Program-made: the position numbers and the translations under genes
Shown here: one piece after another, positions 40,567 to 61,333 of the stretch
Position numbering within the stretch: the first letter of the stretch is position 1
Layout: every line of letters begins with the position of its first letter
Notes under the pieces: model-generated
Seen by the model: only the letters and a program-made list of their open reading frames with translations
What the model was told of the DNA's origin: nothing
Databases searched by the model: none
DNA from: Patescibacteria group bacterium
Lineage (GTDB): Bacteria > Patescibacteriota > Patescibacteriia > Patescibacteriales > UBA12465
Assembly: GCA_041650715.1 (NCBI GenBank)
Contig: JBAZKQ010000001.1
Span: 587,146 to 651,145, forward strand
Length of the DNA: 64,000 nt
Reading direction: 5' to 3'

Positions 40567-41151
40567 TTAACGGCTTGACGTATAATCGTACTTTACTTTT
40601 AAATTCAATCTCTGCTGTAAAAGATTCGCCTGCTTAAGTTTGCCCTGGGCGATTAACTTATAGGTTTCACCAAATTGCACAAAATTATCGGCATTGACCT
40701 CCGGTTTCCAGCCCTGGCCGACGATACTCCGCCAAGCCTGATAATCACCCGCCATAATAGCGGCATCAATCTCACTGATTTTAGTCGTCAATACTTGAAA
40801 ATCTTGCTTTAAATTTAATTGCTTTTTGATTAGATTCGCCTCTTCGACTTTACCTTGCTGCAAAAGACGATAAACTTCTGTAAATTGAGAAAAATTGTCG
40901 CTCGTAATCTTTGCCTTGAGACTTTTATCGGTAACAAGACTGCTCCAGGTAGCGTAATCATTATTCATAATCGCCTCCTCAATCGCCACATTCTTTTCTT
41001 GAATGATGGCATCGCGAGCCGCATTAGCCTCGACCATCGCTTTAACAAAGAGCGGGGTGAGGGCAGCCAAACAAAGAAGAATAAATCCGATGGCTGAAAA
41101 AATTAATAATTTTTTGTGGTCGTGGAGATAGTTTTTAAATCTCTGCGTCAT
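40567..41151 (-). CDS. membrane-anchored protein with two ~55-aa internal repeats
   Basis: DYATWSSLVTD...ANLIKKQLNLKQ and DYQAWRSIVGQ...ANLLQQRLNLKVK. Confidence 0.35.
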   Translation of the reverse strand: MTQRFKNYLHDHKKLLIFSAIGFILLCLAALTPLFVKAMVEANAARDAIIQEKNVAIEEAIMNNDYATWSSLVTDKSLKAKITSDNFSQFTEVYRLLQQGKVEEANLIKKQLNLKQDFQVLTTKISEIDAAIMAGDYQAWRSIVGQGWKPEVNADNFVQFGETYKLIAQGKLKQANLLQQRLNLKVKYDYTSSR

Positions 41152-41269: not shown

Positions 41270-42556
41270 TTAGCGAAGCTGGTTCTTCTGATAATTATAG
41301 TCAAAAGACTGGTTAAAACTCGTAATTATCTTCCGGTCGTCAGTTACCAGAGCCGACTCATCGTTATTGTAGGCGCCGGCCCGGCTCCAATTATTCGTTC
41401 CGAAAAAAATCTTTTGATTATCCACAATCAGCAGATGGTAATGCAGGAAGGGATCGAGACTCTCTACCGAGCTGGAAGCTAAAGCACTTGCCTCGTCGCC
41501 ACGCGGCGCGTCACTTATAATCTCTAAATTATTTAATTGATATTTCTGCTTGGCGGCTATTAGATTCTGAAAAACCGAGCTTTTATTATATAAATTACGA
41601 TTATCGGTAATTATTGTCACTTTTACCCCGGCGCGGGCGCGGGTGATTATTTCGTTCGCCAAACCAGAATCGGTAAAATCCCAAATCATAATTCTGATTT
41701 CCTGTTTGGCGCTATGCAATAATGTATAAATTCGATTGCTTAGACTATTACCCGGTACGCCTGGACCAAACCAAACTTCATAATTAGAGCCGCCGGCCGT
41801 CATGCTTAAATCCCAGGGATTATATTTTTTATCGCTGAGTTTTTTCGGTCCCGATTCCCCCTTAGCTAAGCGCTCAAACTCTCGCCCAAAACTCTTGATA
41901 AATTCGGCGTTACTCGTAATCAAGATAAAGCTGGGGTCATACTTTTCTTGAAGTTCAGTCCAATTATAGGAACCAAAAATTAATTTCTGGTTAGCTTCCC
42001 CACGATCGATGAGCGCAAATTTATGATGCATCAAAATGGTCTTGCCACTCTTCTCTTCCCCCAAGTCTAAGCGCTTAATGTTCGCCGGCATATCGGGCAG
42101 AGCTTCGTCATGCACTTCCTTTTTTCGAAAATCAAGAACCAGGGTAACCTTAACGCCACGCTTGGCAGCCGCATAAATCGCGTCTCTGATGCGCGGCGAC
42201 TTTAAAGAGTAGACCGCAATCTCCAACGATTTTTGCGCCTGATTTATTTCCGCCTCAATCCGATCGGAAAAAACTGTTGTGCCAAGTTCGTCATTAAACA
42301 GAAGATCAGCAGAAACCGGTTCATTAGATTGGATAATACGCGCCGGTTTATTATTGGTCGCTAAATAATTAGTCACCGGCTCGGACCAGCGCCGGGTCAG
42401 CTGGGCGACGAAAAATAAAAGTCCTAAAACCAGAAAGACGAGCAGTGTAATCCGAACTGATTTTTTCTTGATAATTTTTCTAAGTGTTTTTTTAAATTTC
42501 ATAGTGTTCGCTAAAAGTATCTTTCCCGCTATCTTCCGTCGCGAAGAAAACGACAA
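41270..42556 (-). CDS. phospholipase-D-family protein (two HKD-like motifs, N-terminal TM anchor)
   Basis: First motif HHKFALIDx12GSYN (HxKx4D...GSxN). Second motif HYHLLIVDNQKIFFGTNN, with K->H substitution. N-terminal hydrophobic anchor. Confidence 0.6.
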   Translation of the reverse strand: MSFSSRRKIAGKILLANTMKFKKTLRKIIKKKSVRITLLVFLVLGLLFFVAQLTRRWSEPVTNYLATNNKPARIIQSNEPVSADLLFNDELGTTVFSDRIEAEINQAQKSLEIAVYSLKSPRIRDAIYAAAKRGVKVTLVLDFRKKEVHDEALPDMPANIKRLDLGEEKSGKTILMHHKFALIDRGEANQKLIFGSYNWTELQEKYDPSFILITSNAEFIKSFGREFERLAKGESGPKKLSDKKYNPWDLSMTAGGSNYEVWFGPGVPGNSLSNRIYTLLHSAKQEIRIMIWDFTDSGLANEIITRARAGVKVTIITDNRNLYNKSSVFQNLIAAKQKYQLNNLEIISDAPRGDEASALASSSVESLDPFLHYHLLIVDNQKIFFGTNNWSRAGAYNNDESALVTDDRKIITSFNQSFDYNYQKNQLR

Positions 42557-44195
42557 TACTGGTCGGCAAATTAACTCGCAGCAAGTTCAAAAGCGCGTCG
42601 CAGTCGGCGTCATGCAAATCCGCCCAATAATTATCCACCGCGACGAAATAGGGGCGATTAGCCAAACAGTAAGCGACTTGCAATAATAGATTATTCTTCG
42701 GACTCTTGGTAAATTTATGCGCCTTAAGGCGCCAATCTTCTTTTTCAAAAAATATTTCTTTCAATTCCGGGTGGCCGTTAACTAAAGCCGAGATGCTGGC
42801 AAAATCTTCTTGGCTAATACGACTTTTCTCCCGGCCAGCGACTACCTCGAGCAAGGTGCGTTCGCTTTTAAATTTAGGGTCAATAAAATAAAAGCTGGCA
42901 TAGTGCTGAAAAAAATCATTATAAAAATATCGTTTGTCACGCGCTTTAATAATCCAGGCCCGTCGTCCGTATTCCCCGCGTCCGCAGAAAAGAGTGGCGA
43001 GCGTGCTTTTACCGCTCCGCCGGGCGCCGCTTATTAAATACTGCTTCCCGACCTTAAAAATAAATCGTAAATTTTTATAATAAGGCGATTTCTTAAATAA
43101 TTTTACTTTCGCGGACTTAAAAATCAATTCTTTAAAGCGCGGTTTCAGGTCACGGCCGATTTCCGGTGCCGTATTTTTCGGAACCGACAAAGAAAGGCCG
43201 AAGGTAAACGGTACGGAATAGAGACCGATACGCAAACTTTCATAAAGCAGGCGGGAAAAATAAACCGTGAAAATAACTAAAGCAAATTTATCGTTCGAAT
43301 CCGTCGTGGCGATAAAGTTAGAAATCTGCTGGTCATAAACGCTAAAAATCCAACCGAAAAAGATAATCAAAATAAAGACAACGCTGGCGCCGAAGCGCAG
43401 CCAAATATCGCGGCGCACCCGGAAATACGAATCAAGATCGACGAGATTATTAAAATCATTTAGCGTGGCCCGCTCACGATGGAAATATTTAGTAAATTGC
43501 CAATCCGATAAAGTAAAGTCAACCAATTTAATTATCTTGGAATAAAAAGTCGTTTCCCGCGAAACATAATAACGGGAAATGAAATAAGCGATGCCGGCAA
43601 TAATTATATTGATAATGAGGCCCGCGACGTAAAAAATTATCAGATGAGTACTGAAAACAAAACATAAAAACAAAAGAATAAGCGAATATAATAGCCAGCG
43701 AAGCGATCCCGCCAGACTATTGGTGAATCCCATGGCGAGCAGCGGGAGATGATACGATATTTTAGCTAATAATAGCCCTTTACTGTCAAGGTTCGCCGCC
43801 GCCGCTTCAGAATTAAGAGAAAGCTTGAACCACTTTAAACGCAGATTATTAATTAATTTTATAACCAGCGTCCGTTCCAATTTGATCGCAAAATAAGAAG
43901 CAAATAAATAAATAAGAGCGCCAACGGCAATAAAAACGAAAACCCGGCTATTGCTCATGAGGCCATAAATTTGCCCGCCGTTCTTTAAATAACGATGGCT
44001 CAGCAAAATCAAAATAACTTCCAGTATTCCCTGCACCAGCAAAAAAACCAAGGCGCGGGTAATTAGTTTTTTATGGCGGCCAAAGAATCTAAAAAGAAAA
44101 GCAAAATCATCGCGCGTCGGCCAGAGCGGCGAATTCTCCATGCGCTCGCCACGGCGGCGGCGCATTAAACTAATTTTTTTTGAGTCGATTGACAT
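42492..44195 (-). CDS. ABC-exporter-like protein (6-TM domain + degenerate NBD)
   Basis: N-terminal ~300 aa with ~6 TM helices. C-terminal Walker A GARRSGKST. Degenerate signature (NNLLLQVAYCLA instead of LSGGQ) and Walker B (VAVDN, no catalytic Glu). Overlaps the RT stop by 26 nt and the PLD start by 65 nt. Confidence 0.55.
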   Translation of the reverse strand: MSIDSKKISLMRRRRGERMENSPLWPTRDDFAFLFRFFGRHKKLITRALVFLLVQGILEVILILLSHRYLKNGGQIYGLMSNSRVFVFIAVGALIYLFASYFAIKLERTLVIKLINNLRLKWFKLSLNSEAAAANLDSKGLLLAKISYHLPLLAMGFTNSLAGSLRWLLYSLILLFLCFVFSTHLIIFYVAGLIINIIIAGIAYFISRYYVSRETTFYSKIIKLVDFTLSDWQFTKYFHRERATLNDFNNLVDLDSYFRVRRDIWLRFGASVVFILIIFFGWIFSVYDQQISNFIATTDSNDKFALVIFTVYFSRLLYESLRIGLYSVPFTFGLSLSVPKNTAPEIGRDLKPRFKELIFKSAKVKLFKKSPYYKNLRFIFKVGKQYLISGARRSGKSTLATLFCGRGEYGRRAWIIKARDKRYFYNDFFQHYASFYFIDPKFKSERTLLEVVAGREKSRISQEDFASISALVNGHPELKEIFFEKEDWRLKAHKFTKSPKNNLLLQVAYCLANRPYFVAVDNYWADLHDADCDALLNLLRVNLPTSIVVFFATEDSGKDTFSEHYEI

Positions 44196-45390
44196 GCTGG
44201 CTTGATAAGAAATGTTTATAAATCGAGACTAAGGGGATGCCTTTTAACTTTTCGTTAAGAAGGCGCCGGTTTTTAGGGGTATAGGTACCAAAAAAATAAC
44301 GGGTTAAAATATGGAAGAAAGCTTCGGAAACCGCTCGGACTTCTTCGGACTTAGTCACTAACTTTTTTTGCTCGGCAATTTGCTTAAACTGTTCGTATAA
44401 ATTATTGCGCTCTCTTTTCAAGGACTTAGTGATAAAATCCTTTTTCCTTTGCTCGTCATGCACGCGGTAATAATCAAATTGTGCACTCCAGCGCTTCAGC
44501 ATCTGCTTTAGGAAGCCCGGCTCCAGCCCGATAGCACCCGCGTTAAAATTATAACCTAAAAAATTAAAAACATCGTTAGCGCGGCCCAGTCTGGTTTTCT
44601 TTTCATTAATTTTTAAACCCAGTTCTCCCGCCGCCATTACCAAATGCTCATATAAAGGCTGCAGCCGTTCCGCTTTTTGATCAAAAATAATTAAATCATC
44701 GCCGACGCGGCGATAAAAGTCGGCTCGTGGGCCCGAGTATTTATCAAAATCATCCAAATATAAATTATTAAATAGAGCGACGAGCGGGACGCCCTGAATG
44801 ATACCCACTTCCCGGTTAACGACTTTGCCGTCCTTAATAATTTTATTGCCGATAAAGAGCTTTAAAAGTTTATAGACGTCACCCTCAAAATTCAGTTTCT
44901 CGATTTTTTTGAGCAGCAATACGGGGCTGATATAATTGGAGTAATCCGTTAAATCGGCGACCAGCGCAAAATCGCGATTATGATATTTTTTATAATGACG
45001 CACAACGCTGCGCGCGGCGAAATAACTTTGGTGCGAAGAACGATAGGAAAATAACCACTCGGAAAAATAAGCGTCGAAAAAGGGTTCAACTATTTGATAA
45101 ATCGCCTGCGCTTTGACTCTTTCCTTGAGATTATAAATATAGATCTCCCGCATTTTCTGGGGATTGTTTTTTTTCGGAATCGTAAAAAGAACGGCCGGCG
45201 AAAGCTCTTTAAAGGCAATCATTTCGCGGCGCACTTCCTTAATTAATTTAGCGGGATCAACCTCTAAATCACCTTGTTTCAAACCGTCATAACCCGCATA
45301 GCGCCCGGCGCGGCCGTCTGCATCCATTTGCTCGGCCAATTTCAAATAAGCCTTTTCGAGATTATCACGGGAAATTATTTCTTTAAACAT
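44170..45390 (-). CDS. reverse transcriptase (group-II-intron-like / retron-like RT domain, no maturase or intron RNA)
   Basis: Motif 0 ISRDNLEKAYLKL. Motifs 1-2 IPKKNNPQKMREIYIYNLKERVKAQAIYQIVEPFF. Motif 2a SYRSSHQSYFAA. Motif 3 FALVADLTDYSNYI. Motif 4 GIIQGVPLVALFNNLYL. Motif 5 FYRRVGDDLIIF (VGDD in place of YADD). Motif 6 LGLKINEKKTRLG. Motif 7 FNFLGY. ATG at 45390. The ORF track extends to a TTG at 45402. Confidence 0.8.
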   Translation of the reverse strand: MFKEIISRDNLEKAYLKLAEQMDADGRAGRYAGYDGLKQGDLEVDPAKLIKEVRREMIAFKELSPAVLFTIPKKNNPQKMREIYIYNLKERVKAQAIYQIVEPFFDAYFSEWLFSYRSSHQSYFAARSVVRHYKKYHNRDFALVADLTDYSNYISPVLLLKKIEKLNFEGDVYKLLKLFIGNKIIKDGKVVNREVGIIQGVPLVALFNNLYLDDFDKYSGPRADFYRRVGDDLIIFDQKAERLQPLYEHLVMAAGELGLKINEKKTRLGRANDVFNFLGYNFNAGAIGLEPGFLKQMLKRWSAQFDYYRVHDEQRKKDFITKSLKRERNNLYEQFKQIAEQKKLVTKSEEVRAVSEAFFHILTRYFFGTYTPKNRRLLNEKLKGIPLVSIYKHFLSSQHVNRLKKN

Positions 45391-45414
45391 AAAAAAAATC
45401 AAATACCCTGGTCG

Positions 45415-45684
45415 CTACTTCTAAGCTGACCGAACCTTAACGGACGGCCATCATTTAAATGACAATGAGTCTTTCCCTTGATAAGGGAGAGATTTTCTTT
45501 TCGACTATTACATATCTAATATGTGATAGTCTTTTCGCACGGCCGTAAGGCTTTGCGATTTTTCGCGGACGTAAGTCTGCGTTTTTTCGGATTTAATTAA
45601 TTCATAAAATGCCACCGGCACTAGCGGTTTTTTTATGGCATCAACCGATTAATTCTTAATGCCTCTTTCGAGTTTTAGAAGTAG
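45415..45684. ncRNA. structured non-coding unit 1 (~270 nt) flanked by 10-bp terminal inverted repeat ctacttctaa/ttagaagtag; candidate RT-associated ncRNA
   Basis: No ORF. At least four hairpins, including GNRA-type loops (ggcc-gtaa-ggct). Contains the 12-bp palindrome tcatttaaatga. Homologous to unit 2 with compensatory changes. Confidence 0.55.
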
Positions 45685-45743
45685 TCGCCAGGATATTTAA
45701 TTTTAAAATTACTAAAAACTGTTAACTATAAATATCCTGATAA

Positions 45744-45988
45744 CTACTCCTAAGCTGGTCAAACCTTTACGGACGACCATCATTTAAATGACAATGAGTC
45801 CTCTTCTTGAGAAGGAGAGGATTTTCTTTCGCTATTGCATAGTTTACTATGCAGTAGTCTTATACGTGAAGCCGCAAGGCAACATGTATAATTCGGATTT
45901 AATTAATTCATGAGCGTCACCGGCATTAGCGGTTTTTTGCGGCGCCGACCGATTAATTCTTAATGCCTCTTACGAGTTTTAGAAGTAG
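45744..45988. ncRNA. structured non-coding unit 2 (~245 nt), tandem copy of unit 1 (~80% identity), flanked by ctactcctaa/ttagaagtag
   Basis: Same hairpins as unit 1 with covarying stems (acatat/atatgt -> gcatag/ctatgc; tctttccctt/aagggagaga -> tcctcttctt/aaggagagga). One hairpin deleted relative to unit 1. Confidence 0.55.
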
Positions 45989-46051
45989 TTGTCAGGATAT
46001 TTAATTTTAAAAATACAGAGACTTTACGATCGCTCTAATTTATTATGTCAT

Positions 46052-49000
46052 CTACCGATTAACGATAACTCCCGTTTGCGCTTGGTCATGCGCTCGCGTC
46101 GGCCAATTCTGCCAATCGTAGCGTTTGCCGATTAAACGATAAGAAATTTCCACCGCTTCGTTTGAGCGGAAAATTAATTTATTATTTTCAATAACATAAT
46201 AGACATTAGCGAATTTACCCGACGGGGTAATAAATACTTGGACATTATCATTATTATAATCAACAACTTTATGCCAGAGCCAGAGGTCGCTGCCCTCGTC
46301 TTCAAGCGCAAAATTTATAATATATTCATATTCCCGCGTCTTGGCATTAAAACGCTGAATATCTGCCTTCCCGACATATTCCTCCTTAACGCCACCGGCG
46401 ATTGAAGGCGCGAAAGTAGAATAATTAACATCATTAATATTATACAAAGGATCGATTGTCGTAGCGGTAATCTTAGTGACGGTCAAATTATTCAAGTTAG
46501 TAATATTTTTGGCACCAAAATTTACGTCACCCAGCATTGTGCCGCCGGTAAGCGGTAAATAATTACCGGTGGGCATTGAGCTGGTCGCAGCCGCAATTAA
46601 TGTTTTCACAATTCCATAATTAGCAAGAGCATAGTCATCAGTACTCAAATATGTGCTCGCATAATTATGCCCGGTATTTAATGAGCCGGCCGGAGCGGTG
46701 CCCGCGTTGCCGATAGAGAAAATATCGTTAGGAGCGGTCGTACCGATACCAACTTTACCCGTGCCTCCCGGCATTAAAGCGAGGTTAACACCCGAAGCGG
46801 TAGTAATAGAGTTGGGACCGGTTCCGGAGAAGGCTAAATCAGCACCGGCACCAGAGAGAGTAATGCCGGTTGTCCCGGCTAAGGCTAAATTGGCGGCGCC
46901 ATAAATATCACCACCGGCAATATTCAAACGATAGGCACCCGGCAGAGATGTCCCAATACCGACGTTCCCGGTAGCGTTAACAAAAACACCTTCATTACCG
47001 CCGTCTCCCGATAACCAATAATTACCAAGTAAAATATTTTGTGTGGCCGTATGGTCGCCTAAATTATCGCCACCAGTTGCCGTACCGCAATCTGTCGTTT
47101 TAGCGGAAACGTTTCCGGTCGCATCGACATATAAACAGCGATTGCCCACCCCGGATAAAGCGGTGGTAATTTGACCATTTAAATAACTGGTCCCGACGAC
47201 AGCCAATTTATAAGCCGGTGTCGTTGTACCGATGCCGACGTTGCCCAAACTTTCACTAACATAAAATAATGAAGACCCGCTTCGATTATTAATATGGAAA
47301 CCAACGTTTGTGGAATCATAACCGACGCTCATTCGTTCCAGACCGGATGAATTCAAAAATTTCAGCATTTTGTCATTGGACGTCGCGGAGTTAGATTGAA
47401 TAGCTATTTGTCCACCGGTAACCGTTAATTTGCTGCCGGGTGTTGTCGTCCCAATCCCGACATTCCCTGCTCCGGCCGCACCGTTCCAAATATTACTGTT
47501 TAAAGTTCCACCCCAAAAATTTGTTCCTCCGGCGGGCAGCGAGCTCGTTGCGGCCGCAATCAAGGTTTGAACGATGCCATAGTTAGCAAGCGCATATACA
47601 TCAGAACTTAAATAAGTGCTCGTATAATTATGGCCAGTTGCGCTGGACCCAGCCGGAGCCGAACCGGAGTTGCCGATAGAGAAAATATCGTTAGGAGCGG
47701 TGGTACCAATACCAACGTTGCCGGAAGTTCCTAATATAGTCATTCTTATATTTGCATAACCATCCGTAGAAAAATATATTGGCTTGGCAGCAACATCATT
47801 TGAAAAATATAAATCAGTAGCATTTAATCCGTATCCGAACCAACCTAATCTTATTCCAGAATTATTAAAAAATTCAGCATAAGGCGTTGCAGCTTTTAGT
47901 CCCAGCGTATGACCAACCCCTTGAATCATTGTAACAACACTGTTAGCGGAGCTGTAAACATGTAATGGATAAGCGGGGCTAGTGGTGCCAATTCCAACAC
48001 TCCCGGCAGCATTTACAAAAACACCTTCATTGCCGCCATCGCCTGATAACCAATAATTACTTAATTGAATATTTTGCGTTGCAATATGAGAACCTAAATC
48101 ATCGCCCCCGGTCGCCGTACCGCAATCCGTTGTTTTCGCGGACATATTGCCACTCGCATCAACATATAAACAGCGGTTGCCTACTCCGGATAAAGCGGTG
48201 GTAATTTGACCATTTAAATAACTGGTCCCGACGACAGCCAATTTATAAGCCGGTGTCGTTGTGCCGATACCGACGTTACCGAAAGAATTAATAAACTGGC
48301 GGGTAACGCCATTGCTTACAAAACTAAGTGTTTTATTTGTACCATCAAATAATACTTGTGCTTCTGTACCGCCTAAAGTACTTGACAAAGTGTTAACCTC
48401 AAGCGTTGTTCCATAATAAACCGAACCGCTTTCTGTTCTAAATTGGGCCGCTCTAATATTTCCGGCCACCTGTAACTTATCTATCGGAGCAGTTGTCCCG
48501 ATTCCCACATTTCCCGCTCCGGCATCGCCATTCCAAATATTTACATTCTTAGTACCTCCCCAAAAATTTGTTCCTCCGGCGGGCAGCGAGCTCGTTGCGG
48601 CTGCGATTAAAGTATTAACGATTCCATAATTTGCCAGAGCGTAATTATCCGTACTTAAATATGTATTTGTAAAATTATGTCCGGTATTTGCCGACCCGGC
48701 CGGAGCCGAACCGGAGTTGCCAATGGAAAATCTATCGTTAGGAACGGTCGTCCCGATCCCAACATTGCCGGAAGCAATAATGCGCATAGCCTCTGTTCCC
48801 TGATTTACAAAAAATGCATGCTGGCCATTAACACCCGCTTGATATTCCATTACATTAAGCGACATGCCGATACCATATCGATTGCCGGTAGAACCATTGG
48901 TAAACATGTCCCACTTTAAGTTATTTACACTTCCCGCGACACTCGAACCATAAGTACCGCCGAAGGAAACGTTTAATGGCGTCGGAGTTGATACCGATAC

Positions 49001-49843
49001 CGTAGTACCAAATAAGGCGCTACCATTAACGTTCAATAATCTTGTCGGATTCGTTATTCCAATCCCGACATTATCCGTGATTGTACTCGGATATAAATAG
49101 GGTGCTGTTCGTGTCCAACCGCCCGCTCCACCGCTAACTGAAGCCCAATCAGTTCGACAGTCATCCTGAAAACATAAACGATTAGCTTTTAAATCACCCT
49201 CGATTCCGAGTGAAACCACATCGCCGGTGCCATAAGCAAAAGGAGTCGCACCGTTATAATTCCCAAACCAAAGCGAGGTCGTCCCGACTCCGGTTAAGGC
49301 AATCGATTTATTATTAGTTAATTGTAAATCTCCTGTCGGTGCTAAATTACCAAGACTATCAAGCGTTAAAGAAGGAGTGACAACCTGCTTAATAAACCCA
49401 CTGACATTTGATAAATTTGAAATTTTGAGCGGCGCGGAAACGCAAGCACCGGATATTAAATCATAACCGGCGACACAAGAGGTGCAGGAATTGCTCGTAC
49501 AAGTATCGCAAGTGGCACAATTCGATCCGGCCGTACAATTTGAAACGCAAGCGCCGCTACAATTCGTATATCCGCTACTACAAGTTAAAGCACAGCCGCA
49601 AATATTACAGTCAAAAGCATAAGTACCATTGGCCGGATTAGAGGGACATGCGGCCGTCGGCTCGATTGTACAGGCAAGCGTATTACTGCCGCACCAAGAC
49701 TTGCCACCATCCGCCCAGGAGCATAATTCCCCGTTTTTCATCGTATCGGTAATACAACCTTTAGGCGAAGTGGTCGCAAAAACTCCGGTAGCTATGAACA
49801 GCCCGGAGAATACGACAATGGCGAGCAAAAATTTCTTCGTCAT
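46052..49843 (-). CDS. giant secreted tail-fibre-like repeat protein (1263 aa) with Cys-rich N-terminal region
   Basis: Signal peptide. Cys-rich region (~60-140). Three copies of the ~90-aa module NVGIGTTAPNDIFSIGNSGSAPAGS.NTGHNYT.TYLSTDDYALANYGIV.TLIAAATSSLPAGGTNFWGGT.N.NIWNG.AGAGNVGIGTT. Also carries the NGQITTALSGVGNRCLYVDA.GN.SAKTTDCGTATGGD module. Confidence 0.7.
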   Translation of the reverse strand: MTKKFLLAIVVFSGLFIATGVFATTSPKGCITDTMKNGELCSWADGGKSWCGSNTLACTIEPTAACPSNPANGTYAFDCNICGCALTCSSGYTNCSGACVSNCTAGSNCATCDTCTSNSCTSCVAGYDLISGACVSAPLKISNLSNVSGFIKQVVTPSLTLDSLGNLAPTGDLQLTNNKSIALTGVGTTSLWFGNYNGATPFAYGTGDVVSLGIEGDLKANRLCFQDDCRTDWASVSGGAGGWTRTAPYLYPSTITDNVGIGITNPTRLLNVNGSALFGTTVSVSTPTPLNVSFGGTYGSSVAGSVNNLKWDMFTNGSTGNRYGIGMSLNVMEYQAGVNGQHAFFVNQGTEAMRIIASGNVGIGTTVPNDRFSIGNSGSAPAGSANTGHNFTNTYLSTDNYALANYGIVNTLIAAATSSLPAGGTNFWGGTKNVNIWNGDAGAGNVGIGTTAPIDKLQVAGNIRAAQFRTESGSVYYGTTLEVNTLSSTLGGTEAQVLFDGTNKTLSFVSNGVTRQFINSFGNVGIGTTTPAYKLAVVGTSYLNGQITTALSGVGNRCLYVDASGNMSAKTTDCGTATGGDDLGSHIATQNIQLSNYWLSGDGGNEGVFVNAAGSVGIGTTSPAYPLHVYSSANSVVTMIQGVGHTLGLKAATPYAEFFNNSGIRLGWFGYGLNATDLYFSNDVAAKPIYFSTDGYANIRMTILGTSGNVGIGTTAPNDIFSIGNSGSAPAGSSATGHNYTSTYLSSDVYALANYGIVQTLIAAATSSLPAGGTNFWGGTLNSNIWNGAAGAGNVGIGTTTPGSKLTVTGGQIAIQSNSATSNDKMLKFLNSSGLERMSVGYDSTNVGFHINNRSGSSLFYVSESLGNVGIGTTTPAYKLAVVGTSYLNGQITTALSGVGNRCLYVDATGNVSAKTTDCGTATGGDNLGDHTATQNILLGNYWLSGDGGNEGVFVNATGNVGIGTSLPGAYRLNIAGGDIYGAANLALAGTTGITLSGAGADLAFSGTGPNSITTASGVNLALMPGGTGKVGIGTTAPNDIFSIGNAGTAPAGSLNTGHNYASTYLSTDDYALANYGIVKTLIAAATSSMPTGNYLPLTGGTMLGDVNFGAKNITNLNNLTVTKITATTIDPLYNINDVNYSTFAPSIAGGVKEEYVGKADIQRFNAKTREYEYIINFALEDEGSDLWLWHKVVDYNNDNVQVFITPSGKFANVYYVIENNKLIFRSNEAVEISYRLIGKRYDWQNWPTRAHDQAQTGVIVNR

Positions 49844-49861
49844 ATAAAAATTATAGCAAAT

Positions 49862-52800
49862 TTATTTACAGCAAGCGAATTTTCGCGCAACGTTACAGCG
49901 GTTAAGCGAACCGAAACCATCAGCATACCCGGTCGGACGATTCCAGACCGCGCCGAAATCAGTACTAACATTACTTGTCCACCCGATACAGTCATTGGCA
50001 TTAGCCGTATAGGCCGGCGGACCATTATTAATCCAGAGTGTAGAGGTGAGCGGAATACTCGCCCCGCTGCCCTGATTGACCGTATATAAAATTTCTTCAG
50101 AAGTACAAACATGCGTATCGGCAACAGTCGCCGCACATAAAGCATTGGCCGCGCTATAGCTGCCGACGTTGCCGGCATAGGTTAAAGCGGTTGAAGTAGA
50201 ATAGGTCGCTAAACCACCGCCGGTCGAACCCGAGATCAATGACTTCACTACGCCGTAATTAACTAAAGCGTAATCGTCTGTGCTTAAATAAGTATTCGTA
50301 AAGTTATGACCGGTGTTCGTTGAACCGGCTGGAGCGGAGCCCGAGTTGCCGATTGAGAATATATCATTCGGTACGGCGGTACCAATGCCGATATTGCCGG
50401 TGCTTAGTATGGTCATTCGATCAGAAAGTGAGTTAAACAAGGACCCGGAACTGCCGGCATCCGCTGTTTGAAAAGTGATGTTGCCACCGATAGCCGAGCC
50501 GGTTCCCGGACCGCCCGCAATGACTAAATTCGCGCCCGCATTATTTGTGCCGAGACCGCCCGTAGCGAATAAAGAAATCGTGCCCGGGTTCGAAGCATAA
50601 ACTCCCTTCCCTAAATAGATATCATTTTGATTCGCACCTAAGATTATCTGATTACTCTTTAAAGCCTTTGCGTTATACCCGACCACAATTGAATTGGCCG
50701 AATCGGCAATAACGCTTGTAAGCGAAGCATCGGCCGTCGTATCGGAATAGGTGGTCGTTGAATTATCATTAATAGTTGCCACTAAATAATATGGCCCCTT
50801 ACCATAAACGCCTGACTTAGTACGATAAATTTTTCGAGCTGTACAAAGATACGGCCCCGTGTAGGTCGGAATTGCACTCAAATTAACCGCTTGATTACCG
50901 GACGTCGTATTTATGCTTCCTAAGTGCCCGCTATTTGTTTCCCCAATAGACAAAACAAAGCTCACTCGATAATAATATGGGCCGACGCCCAGATTACTCC
51001 CGGCGGCCAAAGCGAGAGAACCGGTGCCGGGGCTAAGATAATCTGCACCGCTCCCCAAGGCAATATTATAAGAACCGTTTACCGTACTGACAAGAGAATT
51101 AGTACCCAGCGCCAAAGTATCGCTATTGGCATTTCCATAATAATTTGAGTTAAAGCCCAAAATAACATTACTATTTCCCGTAGAATTCCAGCGCCCGGCG
51201 TAATAGCCCATCATGACCGCACCGGCGCCGGTCCAAGATTCGCCCGCGCCCAGACCGACTAAAGTATTATTGCTGCCGGTCGTAATTTGGTTACCAGTTT
51301 GACGACCAATTAAAGTATTCATCGTTCCGGTCGTTATGGCTGAACCGGCGCCGCGGCCAATAGCCACGTTATAACTACCAGTCGTTAGATTCTGACCCGC
51401 CTGAGCTCCGATAAAGGTATTTTCGGTAGCGGTTGTCAAAGTTGTGTTACCGGCCTGATAACCGACAAAAATATTATTAGTATTTCCAAAAGAATGAATA
51501 TATCTTTGCCCGCCCATCTTAATTATACCTTCAGTAGAGGAAGATAAAGGTAGGCCAAGATTACCTTGAACATATAATTTATCAGCCGGGGTGCTTGTGC
51601 CAATACCAACATTCCCTGCGCCCGCAGTCCCGTTCCAAATATTTCCGTTAAAAGTGCCTCCCCAGAAATTCGTTCCCCCGGCCGGTAGTGAACTGGTCGC
51701 GGCGGCGATTAAGGTTTGAACAATTCCGTAGTTAGTAAGAGCATAATCATCTGTGCTCAAATATGTGTTTGTATAGTTATGGCCAGTATTACCCGATCCA
51801 GCCGGAGCGGAGCCGGAATTACCGATTGAGAATGTATCGTTAGGAACATTTGTGCCGATACCGATATTGCCCAATGAATCGATAAACTCGCGTGTGGCAC
51901 CGTTTGTTACGAAACTTAGTGTCTTGCCAGGGCCATCAAACAATATTTGTGCTTCTGTACCGCCTAAAGTACTTGACAAAGTGTTAACCTCAAGCGTCGT
52001 TCCATAATAAAACGAACCGCCATCCGTTCTAAATTGGGTTGCCCGTATATTTCCTGCGACTTGTAGTTTGTCACCTGGCGCTGTCGTCCCAATCCCGATG
52101 TTGCCTCCGGCCGCTATTCTCATTCTTTCAACATTTGTAGACTGAGTAAATGTTATTGGCTGGTCACCTGAAGTTGCAAAACCAAGAGGATAAGTAGTTA
52201 TAGTTTGAAATAAAGATCTGGCAGTATCCTTCCCATTAATTCTAAACCCATTTAAATAAGTATAGCCGTCTACATATAAGGCCCACGGTTGAGCGCCCGT
52301 CCAGGCGGTATTTTGTTTAACATAAAGAGCGGAGCCTCCGCCATTATTAGTTCCGCCATCTCCAGCCGTAGCCGAATTTATCGTCAAGGCTGAGCCCGGT
52401 GTCGTCGTCCCAATGCCAACATTCCCCGCCCCAGCGTCGCCGTTCCAAATATTACCGTTTAAAGTCCCACCCCAGAAATTCGTTCCCCCGGCCGGTAGTG
52501 AACTGGTCGCGGCGGCGATTAAAGAATTTACGTAACCAACATTAGTTAAGGCATAATCATCGGTTGCTAAATATGTACTCGTAAAGTTATGGCCAGTGTT
52601 CGAGGAACCAGCCGGAGCGGTACCGGAATTACCAATAGAAAAGATATCGTTTGGCACAGTTGTGCCAATCCCGACGTTGCCATTAGCAAGGATCATCATA
52701 TTATATCTGACAGCTGAGTTATACCAACTACTAAAAGTAAAATTTGAAGCGGAAGAATAAAAAGTGTTTGCGGAAAAAGCGGATGCACCAACGATAAACT

Positions 52801-55800
52801 GTGAGCTACTTTTAACGGCGCCAACCACATCCAAGGGGTACGTAGGAGCGGTCGTTCCAATCCCGACGTTGCCGTTACCAAGAATAGTTAATAAATTAGA
52901 GGTAAAAAAGGAAGCCATTCCCCCATTAGCGGTGCTAGCGGGCGAATATTTAATTTGAAAAGCAGGAGAAGTAGACGCTGTGCTTGGGCTCATGAAAATT
53001 GCCGCCGACGAATAAGTAGTGTTACCTTTCGACCACGTATCAGCCCCCAGCGTGCCCTGATAAGCATTTCCCGCCAAAAAAGTATCAGCACCAGAATATC
53101 GCGTGCCTACCGATGCGCTATAGCCGTCTCCAATACGAATTTGAATACCGGAGGGGTTAGAGCCATCAATTTTTAAGCCTGTTGGTTCTATCGATCCTGT
53201 CGGGCCGGCTATTTCCAATTTATACCCCGGATTAGTTACTCCAATCCCGACATTATTTGCCCCATTTAAAGTCCAAATATTACTGGCCGTTGTTCCTCCC
53301 CATAGAGCCGTAATAGAACCTGTCGCCGTCCCAATCATTGTTTTCACTAAACCATAATTAGCCAAAGCATAATCATCAGTACTTAAGTAAGTGTTTGTAT
53401 AATTATGACCAGTGTTAGAAGATCCAGCCGGCGCGGAACCAGCGTTACCAATAGAAAATTTATCGTTCGGAGTCAGCGTTCCGATGCCGACGTTACCTTG
53501 ACCTGCTCTCGAAAAAATTGATAAATTACCGGCCTGAGTATATTCTTCCGCACTACCATTAAAATAGCGTACACCATCAACTAAAACTTTATAGCCGGTT
53601 CCGCCCTGATAATTAAAAAGGAATAATGGTTTTATGTATTTAGTCCCGACAGGAAATTGGTAAGTACCGGTTCCTTCACCGTGTAAAGTACAGGTATACT
53701 TAGTCCAAGTGTTTGGCACGGCGGCGGCAGAAGCCGCACAATAACCATAAGAGCCGCCATTCCCGGACAACGCACCTTTGGCTGAATTATAGGCAGCTGT
53801 ACCAAAATAAATTGTGCTCAAACCTGATGCGCCGACGCTCTTAAACCAACCCTCAAGATAAAAATAACCATCCGAATCAACTGGAATAAACTCAGTGCCC
53901 ATACCAACCGTTAGGCTCGTATCGCTATAAGCTGAATATTTGCCATCTTTGCTATCCGTCGATTCAATCCCATTAAAACCTGCTCCGGTAAAACCATCTA
54001 AAGACCCCGTTTCAAAATCACCATTCGGGGTTAAATTAATCGCTGCATAATTAGCCACTAAAGAACCGGCAACTTGTAATTTCGCCTGTGGGCTTGAAGT
54101 GCCGATACCAACGTTGCCGTTTCCTGATATTCTCATTTTTTCTGATAGCTGGGTGCCGTGCGCTCTGGTGTTAAATGATAAATAACCCCCATACTCTCCT
54201 GCAGTAGCACTTTCTTTCGCTCCTTTAATTACAGCAAAACCGGCTTGCGAAGTAGAGTTATATCTTCCACCAAAACCTATTGAACCGCCAATATTAATTC
54301 CTAAAGCGTCATTAGTCGCAATATTTAATACACCAGCGTTAACTGAGACGGCGCCAACTATCACATTTGGTCCGGTAATAGACGCTGTAGGAGCCGTTAA
54401 ACTATCTGCCGCCGCATTAACTGTTCCGCTTAATATATCTAATTTTGTATTTGGATTTATTGTCCCAATCCCGACGTTGCCATCTGATTTTAAATACAAA
54501 GCTGGCGTTGTATAATTATTATTTACAACAAAAGCAATTGGGATAGCCCCGTTTGTGGCGAACTCAAATCTATTTGTTCTTTGCGGTTGCGCGACATAGC
54601 CGGTGCCAAAATAATTTATAAAACCTTTTTCTACGTTTAGTTCATCACGGAAGCTCAAGCTATTATAACCAGCTGAAGTTTTTAAACTCATTGCCAAGCT
54701 ACCAGCATTAGCGGAGATATGCAAAGGCAAACTTGGAGTTGTCGTTCCAATCCCAACGTTCCCTGCTCCCGCCGCGCCATTCCAAATGTTACCGTTTAAA
54801 GTTCCACTCCAATAATTTGTAACAGTCGGTAAAGAACTGGTCGCATCAGAAATTAAAGACTTAACAATTCCATAATTAGTCAAAGCGTAATTATCAGTCG
54901 TCAAATATGTGCTTGTAAAGTTATGGCCCGTGTTCGCTGAACCAGCCGGAGCTTGGCCTGAGTTACCGATTGAAAAAATATCATTCGGAGCAGTCGTGCC
55001 AATACCGATATTTCCGGAACTTAAAATAGACATTTTTATACTACTGGCGGATAAAAATGAAAGGGTGGACGGGGAGTTGAAAAATATCGTATCGCCCGAA
55101 GAACCTACGACATTAAAAGGTGTTCCCCCGCTATTTTTTATTTGCAAATTATAATTATTATCCAATAATATATTTCCACCACTAACTTGTAATTTAGCCA
55201 CGGGCCCAGCATTACCAATGCCAACATTACCATCAAAATAGGCGTTCTTATTAGGATACAATCTAAACGTATTATTATTGTAGGCAGCGTTTGTTTCGGC
55301 CCCAAAGTACATATAGCTAACGGTTGAGATTGCAGGATCAAGAACCACGCTTCCTAAAACACCAATCACGCCGGCACGAGTCAAATTGGTCGATACATTG
55401 CCGATATATCCTTCAAACATATTATATGCAATACCTGACACATCGGGTCGTAAAGCAACTTGTTTTATGCCTGGTCTGGACGTCGCACTATTCGCACTAA
55501 GATTTAGCGCATAGCTGCCTCCACTATTAAATACATCAAGAATTGTAGTCGGATTCGTCGTCCCGATCCCCACATTTCCTGCTCCCGCGGCTCCGTTCCA
55601 AATATTACCGTTTAAAGTTCCGCCCCAAAGTGCGGCCAAAGTGCTGGTGGCCGAACCAATTAATGTTTTGACTACACCATAATTAGCTAAAGCATAGTCA
55701 TCTGATGCTAAATATGTGCTCGTGAAATTATGTCCCGTATTACCGGAGCCGGCCGGAGCCGCGCCCGCGTTACCAATGGAAAAAATATCGTTAGGTAAAG

Positions 55801-56452: not shown

Positions 56453-56459
56453 AAATTAA

Positions 56460-61262: not shown

Positions 61263-61333
61263 TGCGCTTTTTACTTCTATATTATATCACAGAAAATTGA
61301 TTTTTTTGTTTTGTCTACCGACTTTTATTTTTC

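What the first reader, a model, noticed from the sequence alone, without database searches (positions are those of the whole stretch)
45415..45988. Tandem non-coding units show compensatory (covarying) stem changes, GNRA loops and terminal inverted repeats; G-U wobbles all fall on the plus strand
Aligning unit 1 and unit 2 (~80% identity, one ~25-nt hairpin indel) shows that their differences preserve base pairing. Hairpin A is tctttccctt-gat-aagggagaga in unit 1 and tcctcttctt-gag-aaggagagga in unit 2. Hairpin B is gactattacatat-cta-atatgtgatagtc in unit 1 and ctattgcatag-ttta-ctatgcagtag in unit 2. Hairpin C is a gcc-gNaa-ggc stem with GTAA in unit 1 and GCAA in unit 2 (both GNRA loops), enclosed by an outer 9-bp stem in unit 2. 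Both units keep the 12-bp palindrome tcatttaaatga near the 5' side. This is the signature of selection on RNA (or ssDNA) secondary structure rather than on coding potential. In all five stems where a single non-Watson-Crick pair occurs, the pair is G-T when read on the plus strand, which would be a C-A mismatch on the minus strand. That weakly suggests the folded molecule has plus-strand polarity, opposite to the RT mRNA. An msDNA-like cDNA copy of a minus-strand RNA would also have plus polarity. Units are separated by a 59-nt spacer that contains an 11-bp inverted repeat (caggatattta...taaatatcctg).
Basis: seen in the sequence. Interest (0 to 1): 0.8.

Follow-up and report, generated by a model that had tools for sequence, protein, structure and literature searches.

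The report
RNA partner of a reverse transcriptase
The two tandem repeats are copies of an undescribed, highly structured non-coding RNA that always sits just upstream of a reverse transcriptase gene in tiny 'candidate phyla' bacteria, and its variable middle part looks built to fold as the DNA copy the enzyme would make.

Summary

- **Conservation.** The same element lies upstream of homologous RT genes in over 60 Patescibacteria loci, singly or in arrays of 2-3. It is always followed by RT, a degenerate ABC-exporter-like protein and a membrane-anchored PLD/Nuc-like protein.
- **Structure.** Covariation is very strong. 28 of 29 pairs in the 5' domain show compensatory change, including a pseudoknot that is 99.7% paired. 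Rfam has no match, and I found no paper describing it.
- **Strand.**
  - The scaffold (terminal stem, pseudoknot domain, 3' hairpin) folds as minus-strand, RT-sense RNA. G·U outnumbers A·C 157 to 27, and RT-sense promoters and terminators flank the units.
Tetraloops are GNRA/UUCG 22 to 2 in favour of plus, mismatches favour plus 12 to 3, and the plus strand folds better in 29 of 36 units.
- **Best reading.** This is a retron-like system: an RT-sense scaffold RNA whose central template is copied into hairpin-forming single-stranded DNA. The cDNA itself is inferred, not shown.

The parts
45395..45704 (-). ncRNA unit 1 (proximal to the RT gene), from the outer end of one closing-stem arm to the other
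   Evidence: Inverted repeat I2. The CM R1 hit at 45590-45700 on the minus strand scores 113.9 bits, E = 1e-24.
45724..46008 (-). ncRNA unit 2 (distal), with the same architecture and one fewer central hairpin
   Evidence: Inverted repeat I1. The CM R1 hit at 45896-46004 on the minus strand scores 112 bits.
45675..45704 (-). Unit 1, P1 5' arm (closing stem); pairs with 45395-45424
   Evidence: 25 aligned P1 pairs, nearly all with compensatory changes. In the RT sense G·U = 59 and A·C = 15.
45595..45672 (-). Unit 1, 5' domain. Pa hairpin 45663-45672 (GAAA loop). Pseudoknot strand H1 45657-45662, pairing with 45618-45623 in the loop of the S2 hairpin (45614-45628). Long X/Y helix: 45637-45654 paired with 45595-45613.
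   Evidence: On A5, 95.6% of cells are paired and 22 of 29 pairs covary. On A7 (58 distinct sequences), 92.4% are paired, 28 of 29 pairs covary, and H1 is 99.7% paired with 6 of 6 pairs covarying.
45470..45581 (-). Unit 1, variable central region and proposed template. Four hairpins: C' 45564-45581, C 45536-45557, B 45503-45531, A 45470-45492. Their best-folding polarity is plus, i.e. that of a cDNA.
   Evidence: In unit 1 the plus-strand mismatches are T·G, T·G and G·T. Family-wide, tetraloops are GNRA/UUCG 22 antisense versus 2 RT-sense, and 1x1 mismatches are A·C 12 versus G·U 3 in the RT sense. The antisense strand is more stable in 29 of 36 units.
45428..45469 (-). Unit 1, 3' domain.
   Evidence: P2 pairs covary, with G·U 21 versus A·C 1 in the RT sense. 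The CUCRUUG motif is conserved in distant clades as well.
45395..45424 (-). Unit 1, P1 3' arm. It ends 5 nt before the RT start codon.
45901..45976 (-). Unit 2, 5' domain. Pa 45967-45976 (GUAA loop). H1 45961-45966 paired with 45923-45928. S2 hairpin 45919-45933. X/Y helix 45941-45958 paired with 45901-45918.
45799..45890 (-). Unit 2, variable central region. Hairpins C 45861-45890, B 45832-45857 and A 45799-45821.
45724..45798 (-). Unit 2, 3' domain (single-stranded motif 45779-45798, P2 45757-45778) and P1 3' arm 45724-45753. The P1 5' arm is 45979-46008.
45708..45714 (-). Putative -10 box (TAGTAAT) for unit 1, between the two units. A weaker equivalent (TGTATTT) lies at about 46010-46016 for unit 2.
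   Evidence: Read from the sequence. At least 5 of 6 matches to TATAAT occur upstream of 43 of 60 unique units, and 14 of these carry TGn-extended boxes. Each of the three units in L141 has its own TATAAT box and terminator. The window's own boxes are weak.
44170..45390 (-). Reverse transcriptase, 406 aa, group-II-intron-like. Motif C is RVGDD. The steric-gate residue Y150 is retained.
   Evidence: RVT_1 at 7e-16. TIGR04416 scores 115 bits, below its cut-off. The family profile matches GsI-IIC RT at 7e-32 and retron Ec86 only at 2e-6. There are 104 homologous clusters, and nearly all named ones are Patescibacteria.
42492..44195 (-). ABC exporter-like half-transporter, 567 aa (transmembrane domain plus degenerate nucleotide-binding domain). 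It overlaps the end of the RT gene by 26 nt.
   Evidence: PF00664 is found in 25 of 30 homologues and PF00005 in 9 of 30. The profile matches MsbA, TM288 and Pgp. Walker A is kept and Walker B is D-N. A homologue follows the RT in 60 of 61 genome loci.
41270..42505 (-). Membrane-anchored PLD/Nuc-like protein with two HKD domains; the second is HxH.
   Evidence: PLDc_2 at 6e-40 in two stretches. Hits to NucT and DrmC fall below their cut-offs. A basic N-terminus followed by a transmembrane helix is present in 14 of 14 homologues checked. A homologue is present in 58 of 61 loci.
40567..41151 (-). 194-aa membrane-anchored repeat protein. It is an accessory gene found only in the near clade.
   Evidence: tblastn finds it only in L001-L015. 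It has no family or PDB match.

Best explanation
Each unit is a stand-alone non-coding RNA transcribed from the minus strand, the same sense as the RT gene. It is the dedicated RNA partner of the downstream group-II-intron-like RT.

**Architecture.** A ~25-30-bp closing stem (P1) brings two conserved parts together. The 5' domain holds the small hairpin Pa and a long helix whose apical hairpin loop forms a pseudoknot with the strand just after Pa. The 3' domain holds the CUCRUUG single-stranded motif and hairpin P2. These parts fold as RNA and presumably form the RT-binding scaffold.

**Proposed template.** Between the two domains lies a hypervariable insert of one to four hairpins. I propose this insert is the template. 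The RT would start in or near the conserved 3' single-stranded motif, copy the insert, and stop at the pseudoknot domain. The product would be a ~50-130-nt single-stranded DNA of plus polarity that folds into GNRA-capped hairpins, analogous to a retron msDNA.

**Role.** The RNA/DNA-RT complex would act together with the co-translated ABC-exporter-like protein and the extracytoplasmic PLD/Nuc-like protein. The most likely role is a retron- or DRT-style anti-phage or abortive-infection module. Tandem units with different inserts would yield different DNA products.

**Shown here (computationally):** RNA strand, architecture, covariation, promoter and terminator context, strict linkage to the three genes, and the reversed polarity of the insert.

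**Inferred:** that cDNA is made, its start and stop points, the priming mode, and the biological role.
For: - **Linkage.** nhmmer and the CM find the element directly upstream of the RT gene, on the RT strand, in every locus with an RT at least 50% identical and in about 40 more distant loci. All hits with E below 0.02 are on the RT strand upstream of the RT gene, in 0.88 Mb searched on both strands.
- **Covariation.** 49 of 56 RNAalifold pairs show compensatory change. On A7, 28 of 29 pairs covary; 92.4% of cells are paired against 29-50% for slid controls; 0 of 500 shuffles reach the observed values. Pseudoknot H1 was not part of the CM, yet it is 99.7% paired with 6 of 6 pairs covarying.
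- **RNA strand.**
  - The scaffold has G·U 157 versus A·C 27 in the RT sense.
  - The 5' domain is more stable in the RT sense in 33 of 36 units.
  - TATAAT or TGnTATAAT boxes lie upstream of the units.
  - Hairpin plus T-run terminators follow the unit in the RT sense in L005, L008-L011, L017, L073, L077, L083 and L086. In L141 all three units have them.
- **Reversed polarity of the insert.**
  - Among unique central hairpins, GNRA/UUCG tetraloops number 22 antisense versus 2 RT-sense (binomial p = 3.6e-5). Base composition predicts only about 1.3 to 1.
  - 1x1 mismatches are A·C 12 versus G·U 3 in the RT sense.
  - Mean MFE is -25.4 (antisense) versus -18.1 kcal/mol with RNA parameters, and -12.5 versus -9.9 with DNA parameters. 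The antisense strand is better in 29 of 36 units.
  - GC skew is -0.12 in the insert and +0.12 to +0.14 in the 5' domain, in both near and distant clades.
- **The enzyme should make DNA.** Motif A aromatic Y150 aligns with the steric gate F143 of GsI-IIC RT.
- **Operon.** RT, ABC-like and PLD-like genes overlap in the window and co-occur in 58-60 of 61 loci.
Against: - No expression, cDNA or phenotype data exist; the cDNA is an inference from sequence polarity alone.
- Some plus-polarity loops are UUCG (4 of 22). That loop is exceptionally stable in RNA but, from my own recollection of the literature, not in DNA. This leaves room for an antisense RNA.
- The polarity statistics count unique hairpins but are not corrected for phylogeny. 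At least two lineages go the other way: L041 has a GGGA loop in the RT sense, and L077 has G·U pairs in the RT sense.
- The priming site and mode are unknown, and no RNase H gene was found in the cassette.
- Helices H1 and S2 abut with no linker, so both may not form at once.
- The partner proteins are membrane or extracytoplasmic, which does not obviously fit a cytosolic msDNA-guarded effector.
- The two neighbourhoods examined contain surface-protein genes, not recognisable defence islands.
Confidence: 0.55

Rival explanations
1. The unit is an RT-sense structured RNA that is never reverse-transcribed across its central part. It could be a cis-acting leader or riboswitch-like attenuator of the RT-ABC-PLD operon, an RT-binding autoregulatory site, or a scaffold RNA used with a very short template, as in telomerase-like or DRT9/DRT10-type systems. 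On this view the variable hairpins are only spacers.
For: - The unit sits in the 5' leader, ending 5-10 nt before the RT start codon.
- Some clades have a terminator between the unit and the RT, like an expression platform.
- Tandem copies recall tandem riboswitches.
- The conserved parts are all of RT-sense polarity.
Against: - It does not explain why the insert's loops and mismatches are systematically those of the complementary strand: 22 versus 2, 12 versus 3, and 29 of 36 units.
- A 25-30-bp P1 is too stable for a switching helix.
- Each unit can have its own promoter and terminator (L141), which indicates a trans-acting RNA.
- Association with an RT gene is strict.
Confidence: 0.2
2. The central region functions as a plus-strand (antisense) RNA. 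It could be made from a separate antisense promoter, or by RNA-templated RNA synthesis by the GDD-motif polymerase. It would pair with or regulate the minus-strand RNA.
For: - The plus polarity of the insert includes RNA-type UUCG loops.
- Motif C is RVGDD, the form typical of viral RNA-dependent RNA polymerases. Two family members carry weak PF00680 hits.
Against: - No antisense promoter was found.
- T-runs after the plus-sense hairpins are not conserved in relatives, so these are not antisense terminators.
- The steric-gate aromatic residue (Y150 aligning with F143) is nearly invariant, which argues for dNTP use.
Confidence: 0.08
3. The whole unit is a plus-strand RNA, transcribed divergently from the RT gene.
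For: Whole-unit MFE is slightly better on the plus strand: -112.1 versus -109.6, and -103.4 versus -90.6 kcal/mol. The internal hairpins show plus-strand G·T.
Against: - The scaffold has G·U 157 versus A·C 27 in the RT sense.
- The 5' domain is better in the RT sense in 33 of 36 units.
- The Pa loop is GNRA or UUCG in the RT sense.
- Promoters and terminators are in the RT sense.
Confidence: 0.03
4. The units are DNA-level repeats: a MITE-like element with terminal inverted repeats, a transposon end, or the template repeat of a diversity-generating retroelement (DGR).
For: The units have terminal inverted repeats and are tandemly duplicated. DGRs are reported to be the commonest RT type in CPR bacteria (PMC8632793).
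Against: - No other copy and no VR-like partner exists in 64 kb.
- The element is found only next to this RT family.
- Compensatory changes with strand-specific G·U indicate selection on RNA.
- The RT is most similar to group II intron RTs; DGR RTs were not compared. No Avd homologue was identified.
Confidence: 0.02

Closest known systems
Retrons (msr-msd ncRNA, retron RT and effector)
   Same: - The ncRNA lies immediately upstream of the RT on the same strand.
- The two ends of the RNA pair in a long closing stem, comparable to a1/a2.
- Conserved RNA stem-loops accompany a hypervariable hairpin region, comparable to msd.
- The variable region is selected to fold as the complementary DNA.
- Effector-type genes are conserved in the same operon, and the system diversifies into paralogues.
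   Different: - The RT is not of the retron clade. The profile matches Ec86 only at 2e-6, against 7e-32 for a group II intron RT.
- No VTG or NAxxH motifs are visible in the sequence (read by eye).
- The 5' domain is pseudoknotted.
- The variable region sits in the middle of the RNA, not at the 3' side next to the closing stem.
- Units occur in arrays of 1-3.
- The partner genes (ABC-exporter-like and extracytoplasmic PLD-like) are, as far as I know, not among described retron effectors.
- The host range is Patescibacteria.
- A 2'-5' branch and msDNA have not been demonstrated.
DRT2/DRT9/DRT10-type defence RTs (UG/Abi lineage) with upstream ncRNA
   Same: A stand-alone RT works with a structured upstream ncRNA, pseudoknotted in DRT2, that supplies the template (abstracts of PMC12039810, PMC12483538 and PMC12632851).
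   Different: - The RT scores only weakly against UG/DRT models: UG26 120 bits, Drt9 54 bits, Drt2 40 bits.
- The template region here is hypervariable and hairpin-rich, not a conserved repeat or homopolymer template.
- The partner genes differ.
Group II-like (G2L) RTs and CRISPR-associated RTs
   Same: These are the closest protein relatives: GsI-IIC RT at 7e-32 and Cas6-RT-Cas1 at 6e-28. As in G2L RTs, there is no group II intron ribozyme around the gene.
   Different: G2L RTs are described as lacking the characteristic intron RNA structure (PMC8632793). This family has a dedicated, covarying ~190-300-nt RNA of its own. No cas genes were identified among the neighbouring genes examined.

Membership tests
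Retron | RT belongs to the retron/retron-like clade | tested here: not met
   The family profile matches group II intron RTs at 7e-32 to 9e-30, and retron Ec86 RT only at 2e-6 over the palm/thumb region. No retron RT model appears among the top 25 PADLOC hits.
Retron | Upstream ncRNA whose ends pair (a1/a2) and enclose conserved stem-loops plus a variable template hairpin | tested here: met
   P1 is 25-30 bp and covaries. The 5' and 3' domains are conserved and the central hairpins are hypervariable. The order of elements differs from msr-msd.
Retron | RT-made single-stranded DNA (msDNA), 2'-5' branched to a conserved G | not testable with these tools
   Only indirect evidence is available: the plus polarity of the central hairpins.
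Diversity-generating retroelement | Template repeat with a near-identical variable repeat in a target gene | tested here: not met
   Sensitive BLAST of 45391-46051 against the whole window finds only the two units themselves.
Group II intron | Ribozyme domains (for example domain V/VI) flanking the RT ORF | tested here: not met
   Rfam 15 gives no intron hit around the RT gene (43500-47500) even at E up to 10, nor in the whole window at gathering score. The RNA lies entirely upstream of the ORF.
UG/Abi defence RTs (DRT) | RT matches a UG/Abi or DRT family model at family level | tested here: not met
   The best PADLOC hit is RT_UG26 at 120 bits, tied with a generic RT model. NCBIfam Drt2 scores 39 bits against a cut-off of 390, and Drt3a scores 30 against 200. 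UG26 is reported with a Vsr-like endonuclease neighbour, not ABC/PLD (PMC9226505).
G2L (group II-like) RT lineage | RT most similar to group II intron RTs but without the intron RNA | tested here: met
   Searches show the similarity. Searches show the absence of an intron RNA. Phylogenetic placement within G2L was not tested.
Any Rfam 15 RNA family | Covariance-model match at or near the gathering score | tested here: not met
   The best hits are miRNA or sRNA models at 18-30 bits, against gathering scores of 50-94 bits.
Riboswitch / cis-regulatory leader | Aptamer with a switching helix that competes with an expression platform | tested here: inconclusive
   Terminators follow the unit in some clades. 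However, P1 is 25-30 bp, units can be autonomous promoter-terminator cassettes, and no alternative pairing was examined.

The most novel reading that the evidence does not exclude
The RT copies the variable insert into compact, GNRA-capped DNA hairpins that do not stay in the cytoplasm. The co-encoded ABC-type exporter would hand them across the membrane. Outside the cell, the membrane-anchored Nuc/PLD-like domains and, in this clade, the adjacent giant surface proteins would process or display them. This would be programmed secretion of structured single-stranded DNA by an episymbiotic bacterium.

The evidence does not exclude this. The RT, the exporter-like protein and the extracytoplasmic PLD-like protein are the invariant core. 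The PLD domains are predicted to lie outside the cell in all 14 homologues checked. The neighbourhood is made of surface-protein genes rather than defence genes.
Probability: 0.06. Interest if true: 0.95.

Novelty: new variant of a known kind. Interest (0 to 1): 0.78.

Why it matters
- **A new kind of RT partnership.** Group-II-like bacterial RTs are described as RTs that lost their RNA partner. This family has a dedicated, pseudoknotted RNA of its own, in the under-explored Patescibacteria, where DGRs are reported to make up about 80% of RTs (PMC8632793).
- **A third lineage.** If the central insert is reverse-transcribed, this lineage would be independent of retrons and UG/Abi DRTs, yet would have arrived at the 'RT plus structured ncRNA makes a small functional DNA' solution. 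It would also come with unprecedented membrane partners.
- **A reusable test.** Within one ~300-nt element, the scaffold shows RNA-sense signatures and the insert shows complement-sense signatures. This polarity switch is a purely computational fingerprint of a templated product. It could be used to find template regions in other RT-associated RNAs.
- **A compact candidate tool.** The ~400-aa RT and its programmable hairpin insert are also a small candidate for DNA-writing applications.

Tried and rejected
- **Tandem Repeats Finder** found nothing. The two copies are too divergent and carry an indel, so I used the repeat finder and MAFFT instead.
- **Rfam** at permissive E-values gave only spurious miRNA and sRNA matches to the AT-rich closing stems.
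I modelled the 110-position 5' domain only. A 3' domain model was not built.
- **The simple promoter and terminator scan** of the window region was uninformative. The two plus-strand 'terminators' it lists are central hairpins A and C'. Their T-runs are not conserved in relatives, so I rejected the idea that they are antisense terminators.
- **DGR, MITE and group II intron readings** were rejected.
- **UG26 membership** was rejected.
- **The association with giant upstream ORFs** holds only in the near clade, so I do not treat them as part of the core system.
- **Six literature searches** found no description of an RT-ABC-PLD cassette or its RNA. The library lacks most subscription journals, so absence of a prior description is not proven.
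- **IMG/VR** holds only one related contig, so I did not pursue a phage-borne origin.
- **Not used:** structure prediction, fold search and the 1.84-billion-protein scan. The ABC and PLD identities were already clear from profile searches.
Full report
**1. The observation**

The interval 45391-46051 lies between the stop codon of a 1263-aa ORF (46052..49843, minus strand) and the start codon of a reverse transcriptase (RT) gene. The RT gene is 44170..45390 on the minus strand, with its ATG at 45390.

- The interval holds two direct repeats. MAFFT gives 85% column identity with one 23-nt indel. BLAST gives 75% identity over 315 nt.
- Each repeat is bounded by a 30-32-nt inverted repeat that is 83-84% complementary (I1 and I2).
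- Both strands of both units fold far better than shuffled sequence, with z between -7 and -10.
- No further copy exists in the window.
- True unit limits are 45395-45704 and 45724-46008.

**2. The element is conserved next to one RT family**

- The RT has 104 homologous clusters, and nearly all named ones are Patescibacteria (CPR).
- I fetched 61 genome loci and 77 metagenome loci.
- nhmmer finds the unit immediately upstream of the RT gene in every locus whose RT is at least 50% identical.
- A covariance model of the 5' domain (R1) finds the unit in about 40 more loci with RTs 36-46% identical. Every hit is on the RT strand and upstream of the RT.
- Units in distant clades are shorter, about 190 nt, but have the same architecture.
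- Arrays recur in separate clades: two units in the window, L001, L041 and L032, and three in L141.
- Rfam 15 has no matching family.

**3. Architecture and covariation (read 5' to 3' in the RT sense, i.e. the window minus strand)**

- P1 5' arm.
- Linker AAAAC.
- Pa, a 3-bp hairpin.
- H1 strand (GGCAUUA).
- A long helix X/Y, capped by the small hairpin S2 (ACCG-CUAAUGC-CGGU). The S2 loop is complementary to H1, which makes a pseudoknot.
- A variable insert of one to four hairpins. Hairpin A, with a conserved UCA-containing loop, comes last.
- The conserved single-stranded motif CUCRUUGUCA...AAAU.
- Hairpin P2.
- P1 3' arm.
- The RT start codon, within 5-10 nt, or a terminator first.

Support for this structure:
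- RNAalifold on 27 full-length units predicts 56 pairs, and 49 of them show compensatory changes.
- On the 26-sequence 5' domain alignment, 95.6% of cells are paired against 26-51% for slid controls. 22 of 29 pairs covary, and 0 of 500 shuffles reach this.
- On 58 distinct CM-aligned sequences from all clades, 92.4% of cells are paired and 28 of 29 pairs covary.
- H1 was not part of the model. It is nevertheless 99.7% paired, and all six of its pairs covary (GGCAUUA/UAAUGCC becomes GAUAUUA/UAAUAUC, and so on).
- H1 and S2 abut with no linker, so they may be alternative states. I could not resolve this.

**4. Which strand**

*The scaffold is RT-sense RNA.*
- In P1, X/Y, S2, P2 and H1, G·U cells number 157 and A·C cells 27.
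- The 5' domain is more stable in the RT sense in 33 of 36 unique units, at -20.1 versus -14.2 kcal/mol.
- By my count on the alignment, Pa loops are GNRA or UUCG in the RT sense in about half of the 26 sequences, and never in the opposite sense.
- A TATAAT-like box (at least 5 of 6 matches) precedes 43 of 60 unique units. 14 of these have a TGn extension.
- In L005, L008-L011, L017, L073, L077, L083 and L086, a GC hairpin plus T-run separates the unit from the RT start codon.
- In L141, each of three units has its own TATAAT box and its own terminator.

The units are therefore transcribed in the RT sense. At least in some clades they are independent small RNAs.

*The variable insert has the opposite signature.*
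- Among unique central hairpins from all clades, 53 have tetraloops. 22 are GNRA or UUCG when read antisense, appearing as UUGC, UUUC, UUAC or CGAA in the RT sense.
- Only 2 are GNRA or UUCG in the RT sense (binomial p = 3.6e-5). Base composition predicts roughly 1.3 to 1.
- 1x1 mismatches inside these stems are A·C 12 versus G·U 3 in the RT sense.
- Fisher's exact test against the scaffold gives p = 2e-7. This is not corrected for phylogeny.
- The antisense strand of the insert is more stable in 29 of 36 units. Means are -25.4 versus -18.1 kcal/mol with RNA parameters, and -12.5 versus -9.9 with DNA parameters.
- GC skew flips from about +0.13 in the 5' domain to -0.12 in the insert, in both near and distant clades.

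**5. Proteins**

- *RT.* The family profile is closest to group II intron RTs (GsI-IIC at 7e-32) and to Cas6-RT-Cas1 (6e-28). It is far from retron Ec86 (2e-6) and weak against DRT models. Motif C is RVGDD, but the steric-gate aromatic Y150 aligns with F143 of GsI-IIC RT. A DNA product is therefore expected.
- *ABC-like protein.* The next gene, 567 aa, overlaps the RT gene by 26 nt. It is a divergent MsbA/ABCB-type half-transporter. Walker A is intact, Walker B is D-N in place of D-E, and the signature motif is degenerate.
- *PLD-like protein.* The third gene overlaps the second. It has a basic N-terminus and one transmembrane helix, conserved in 14 of 14 homologues, followed by two Nuc/NucT-like HKD domains. 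These domains are predicted to be extracytoplasmic.
- *Conservation.* RT plus ABC-like is found in 60 of 61 genome loci, and the PLD-like gene in 58 of 61; the rest are mostly cut by contig ends.
- *Accessory genes.* A 194-aa membrane protein and giant upstream ORFs accompany the cassette only in the near clade.
- *Neighbourhood.* The two neighbourhoods examined and the window itself are rich in giant ORFan, LamG, cupredoxin and tail-spike-chaperone-domain proteins. They are not rich in recognisable defence genes.
- *Other points.* Several genomes hold two or three divergent paralogous cassettes. Only one related contig is in IMG/VR.

**6. Interpretation**

The scaffold is an RT-sense RNA made to be bound by the RT. 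The insert lies inside that RNA, because P1 encloses it, yet it is optimised to fold as its complement.

In a locus whose one invariant enzyme is a DNA-making RT, the simplest explanation is that the insert is the template and the selected product is a hairpin-forming plus-polarity cDNA. This is the retron logic (msd to msDNA), reached by a non-retron RT.

This is an inference. The priming mode, the start and stop points and the fate of the product are unknown. The UUCG loops and the GDD motif keep an antisense-RNA reading alive at low probability. A purely RNA-level role as a leader or scaffold remains possible, but it leaves the polarity switch unexplained.

The role of the ABC-like and PLD-like partners is open. 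I favour a defence or abortive-infection effector by analogy with retrons and DRTs. Their membrane and extracytoplasmic location also allows an export scenario.

**7. Comparison and novelty**

- The element fails the membership tests for retron (RT clade), DGR (no VR), group II intron (no ribozyme), UG/Abi DRT (weak model scores) and every Rfam family.
- The RT fits the loose 'G2L' description, but unlike described G2L RTs it has a dedicated RNA.
- Six full-text searches found no description of this cassette or RNA.
- I rate it a new variant of a known kind (RT plus structured ncRNA plus accessory proteins), with high interest. The interest rests mainly on the clear covariation, the new RT lineage and partners, and the within-element polarity switch that points to a templated DNA product.

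Noticed in passing
L141:9085-10001 (also L041:5614-5914 and L032:5513-5931): Arrays of the ncRNA unit recur in unrelated clades. L141 has three units in a row, each with its own TATAAT box and its own hairpin plus T-run terminator, and each with a different central insert. L041 and L032 have two units each.
   Followed up: partly
window 44170-45390 (-), RT residues ~226-232: The catalytic motif C of the whole RT family is F-Y-R-R-V-G-D-D. This is a 'GDD' form, as in viral RNA-dependent RNA polymerases, rather than YxDD. Two family members (P0089, P0101) carry weak precomputed PF00680 (RdRP_1) hits. The steric-gate aromatic Y150 is nevertheless conserved.
   Followed up: partly
window 42492-44195 (-): In the ABC-exporter-like protein, the Walker B catalytic Glu is replaced by Asn (D521-N522, nearly invariant across 30 homologues). 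The signature motif is degenerate, while Walker A is intact. It probably binds nucleotide but hydrolyses poorly or not at all.
   Followed up: partly
window 46039-46062: A 24-nt stretch overlapping the stop codon of the 1263-aa ORF is 88% identical to part of the units' Y/X region (45629-45652). It could be a remnant of a third unit, or chance. The same sequence is present upstream of the units in L001.
   Followed up: no
window 46052-63874 (-): Four co-oriented large ORFs (1263, 2196, 1600 and 846 aa) lie directly upstream of the units. The three largest have no Pfam match. The 846-aa ORF has three LamG-like (Laminin_G_3) stretches. Homologous giant ORFs end immediately before the ncRNA in L008-L011 and L014, but not in distant clades.
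   Followed up: partly
window 34463-37669 (-): A 1068-aa ORF has a C-terminal Peptidase_S74 domain (the intramolecular chaperone of endosialidase and tail-spike proteins). This suggests a phage-tail-fibre-like or surface fibre protein.
   Followed up: no
window 45470-45492 and 45450-45469; homologous positions in A4: The loop of hairpin A (UAUCAAG, UGUCAGG or GGUCAAAG) and the conserved single-stranded motif just 3' of it (CAUUGUCAA) share a (U)GUCA/AUCA core across the near clade. This could be a repeated protein-recognition or initiation signal.
   Followed up: no
L001/L004, L003/L022, L015/L043, L033/L055, L044/L051/L053: Single small CPR genomes carry two or three divergent paralogous copies of the whole ncRNA-RT-ABC-PLD cassette, with RTs 35-60% identical to one another's clades. 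This pattern is typical of diversifying systems.
   Followed up: no
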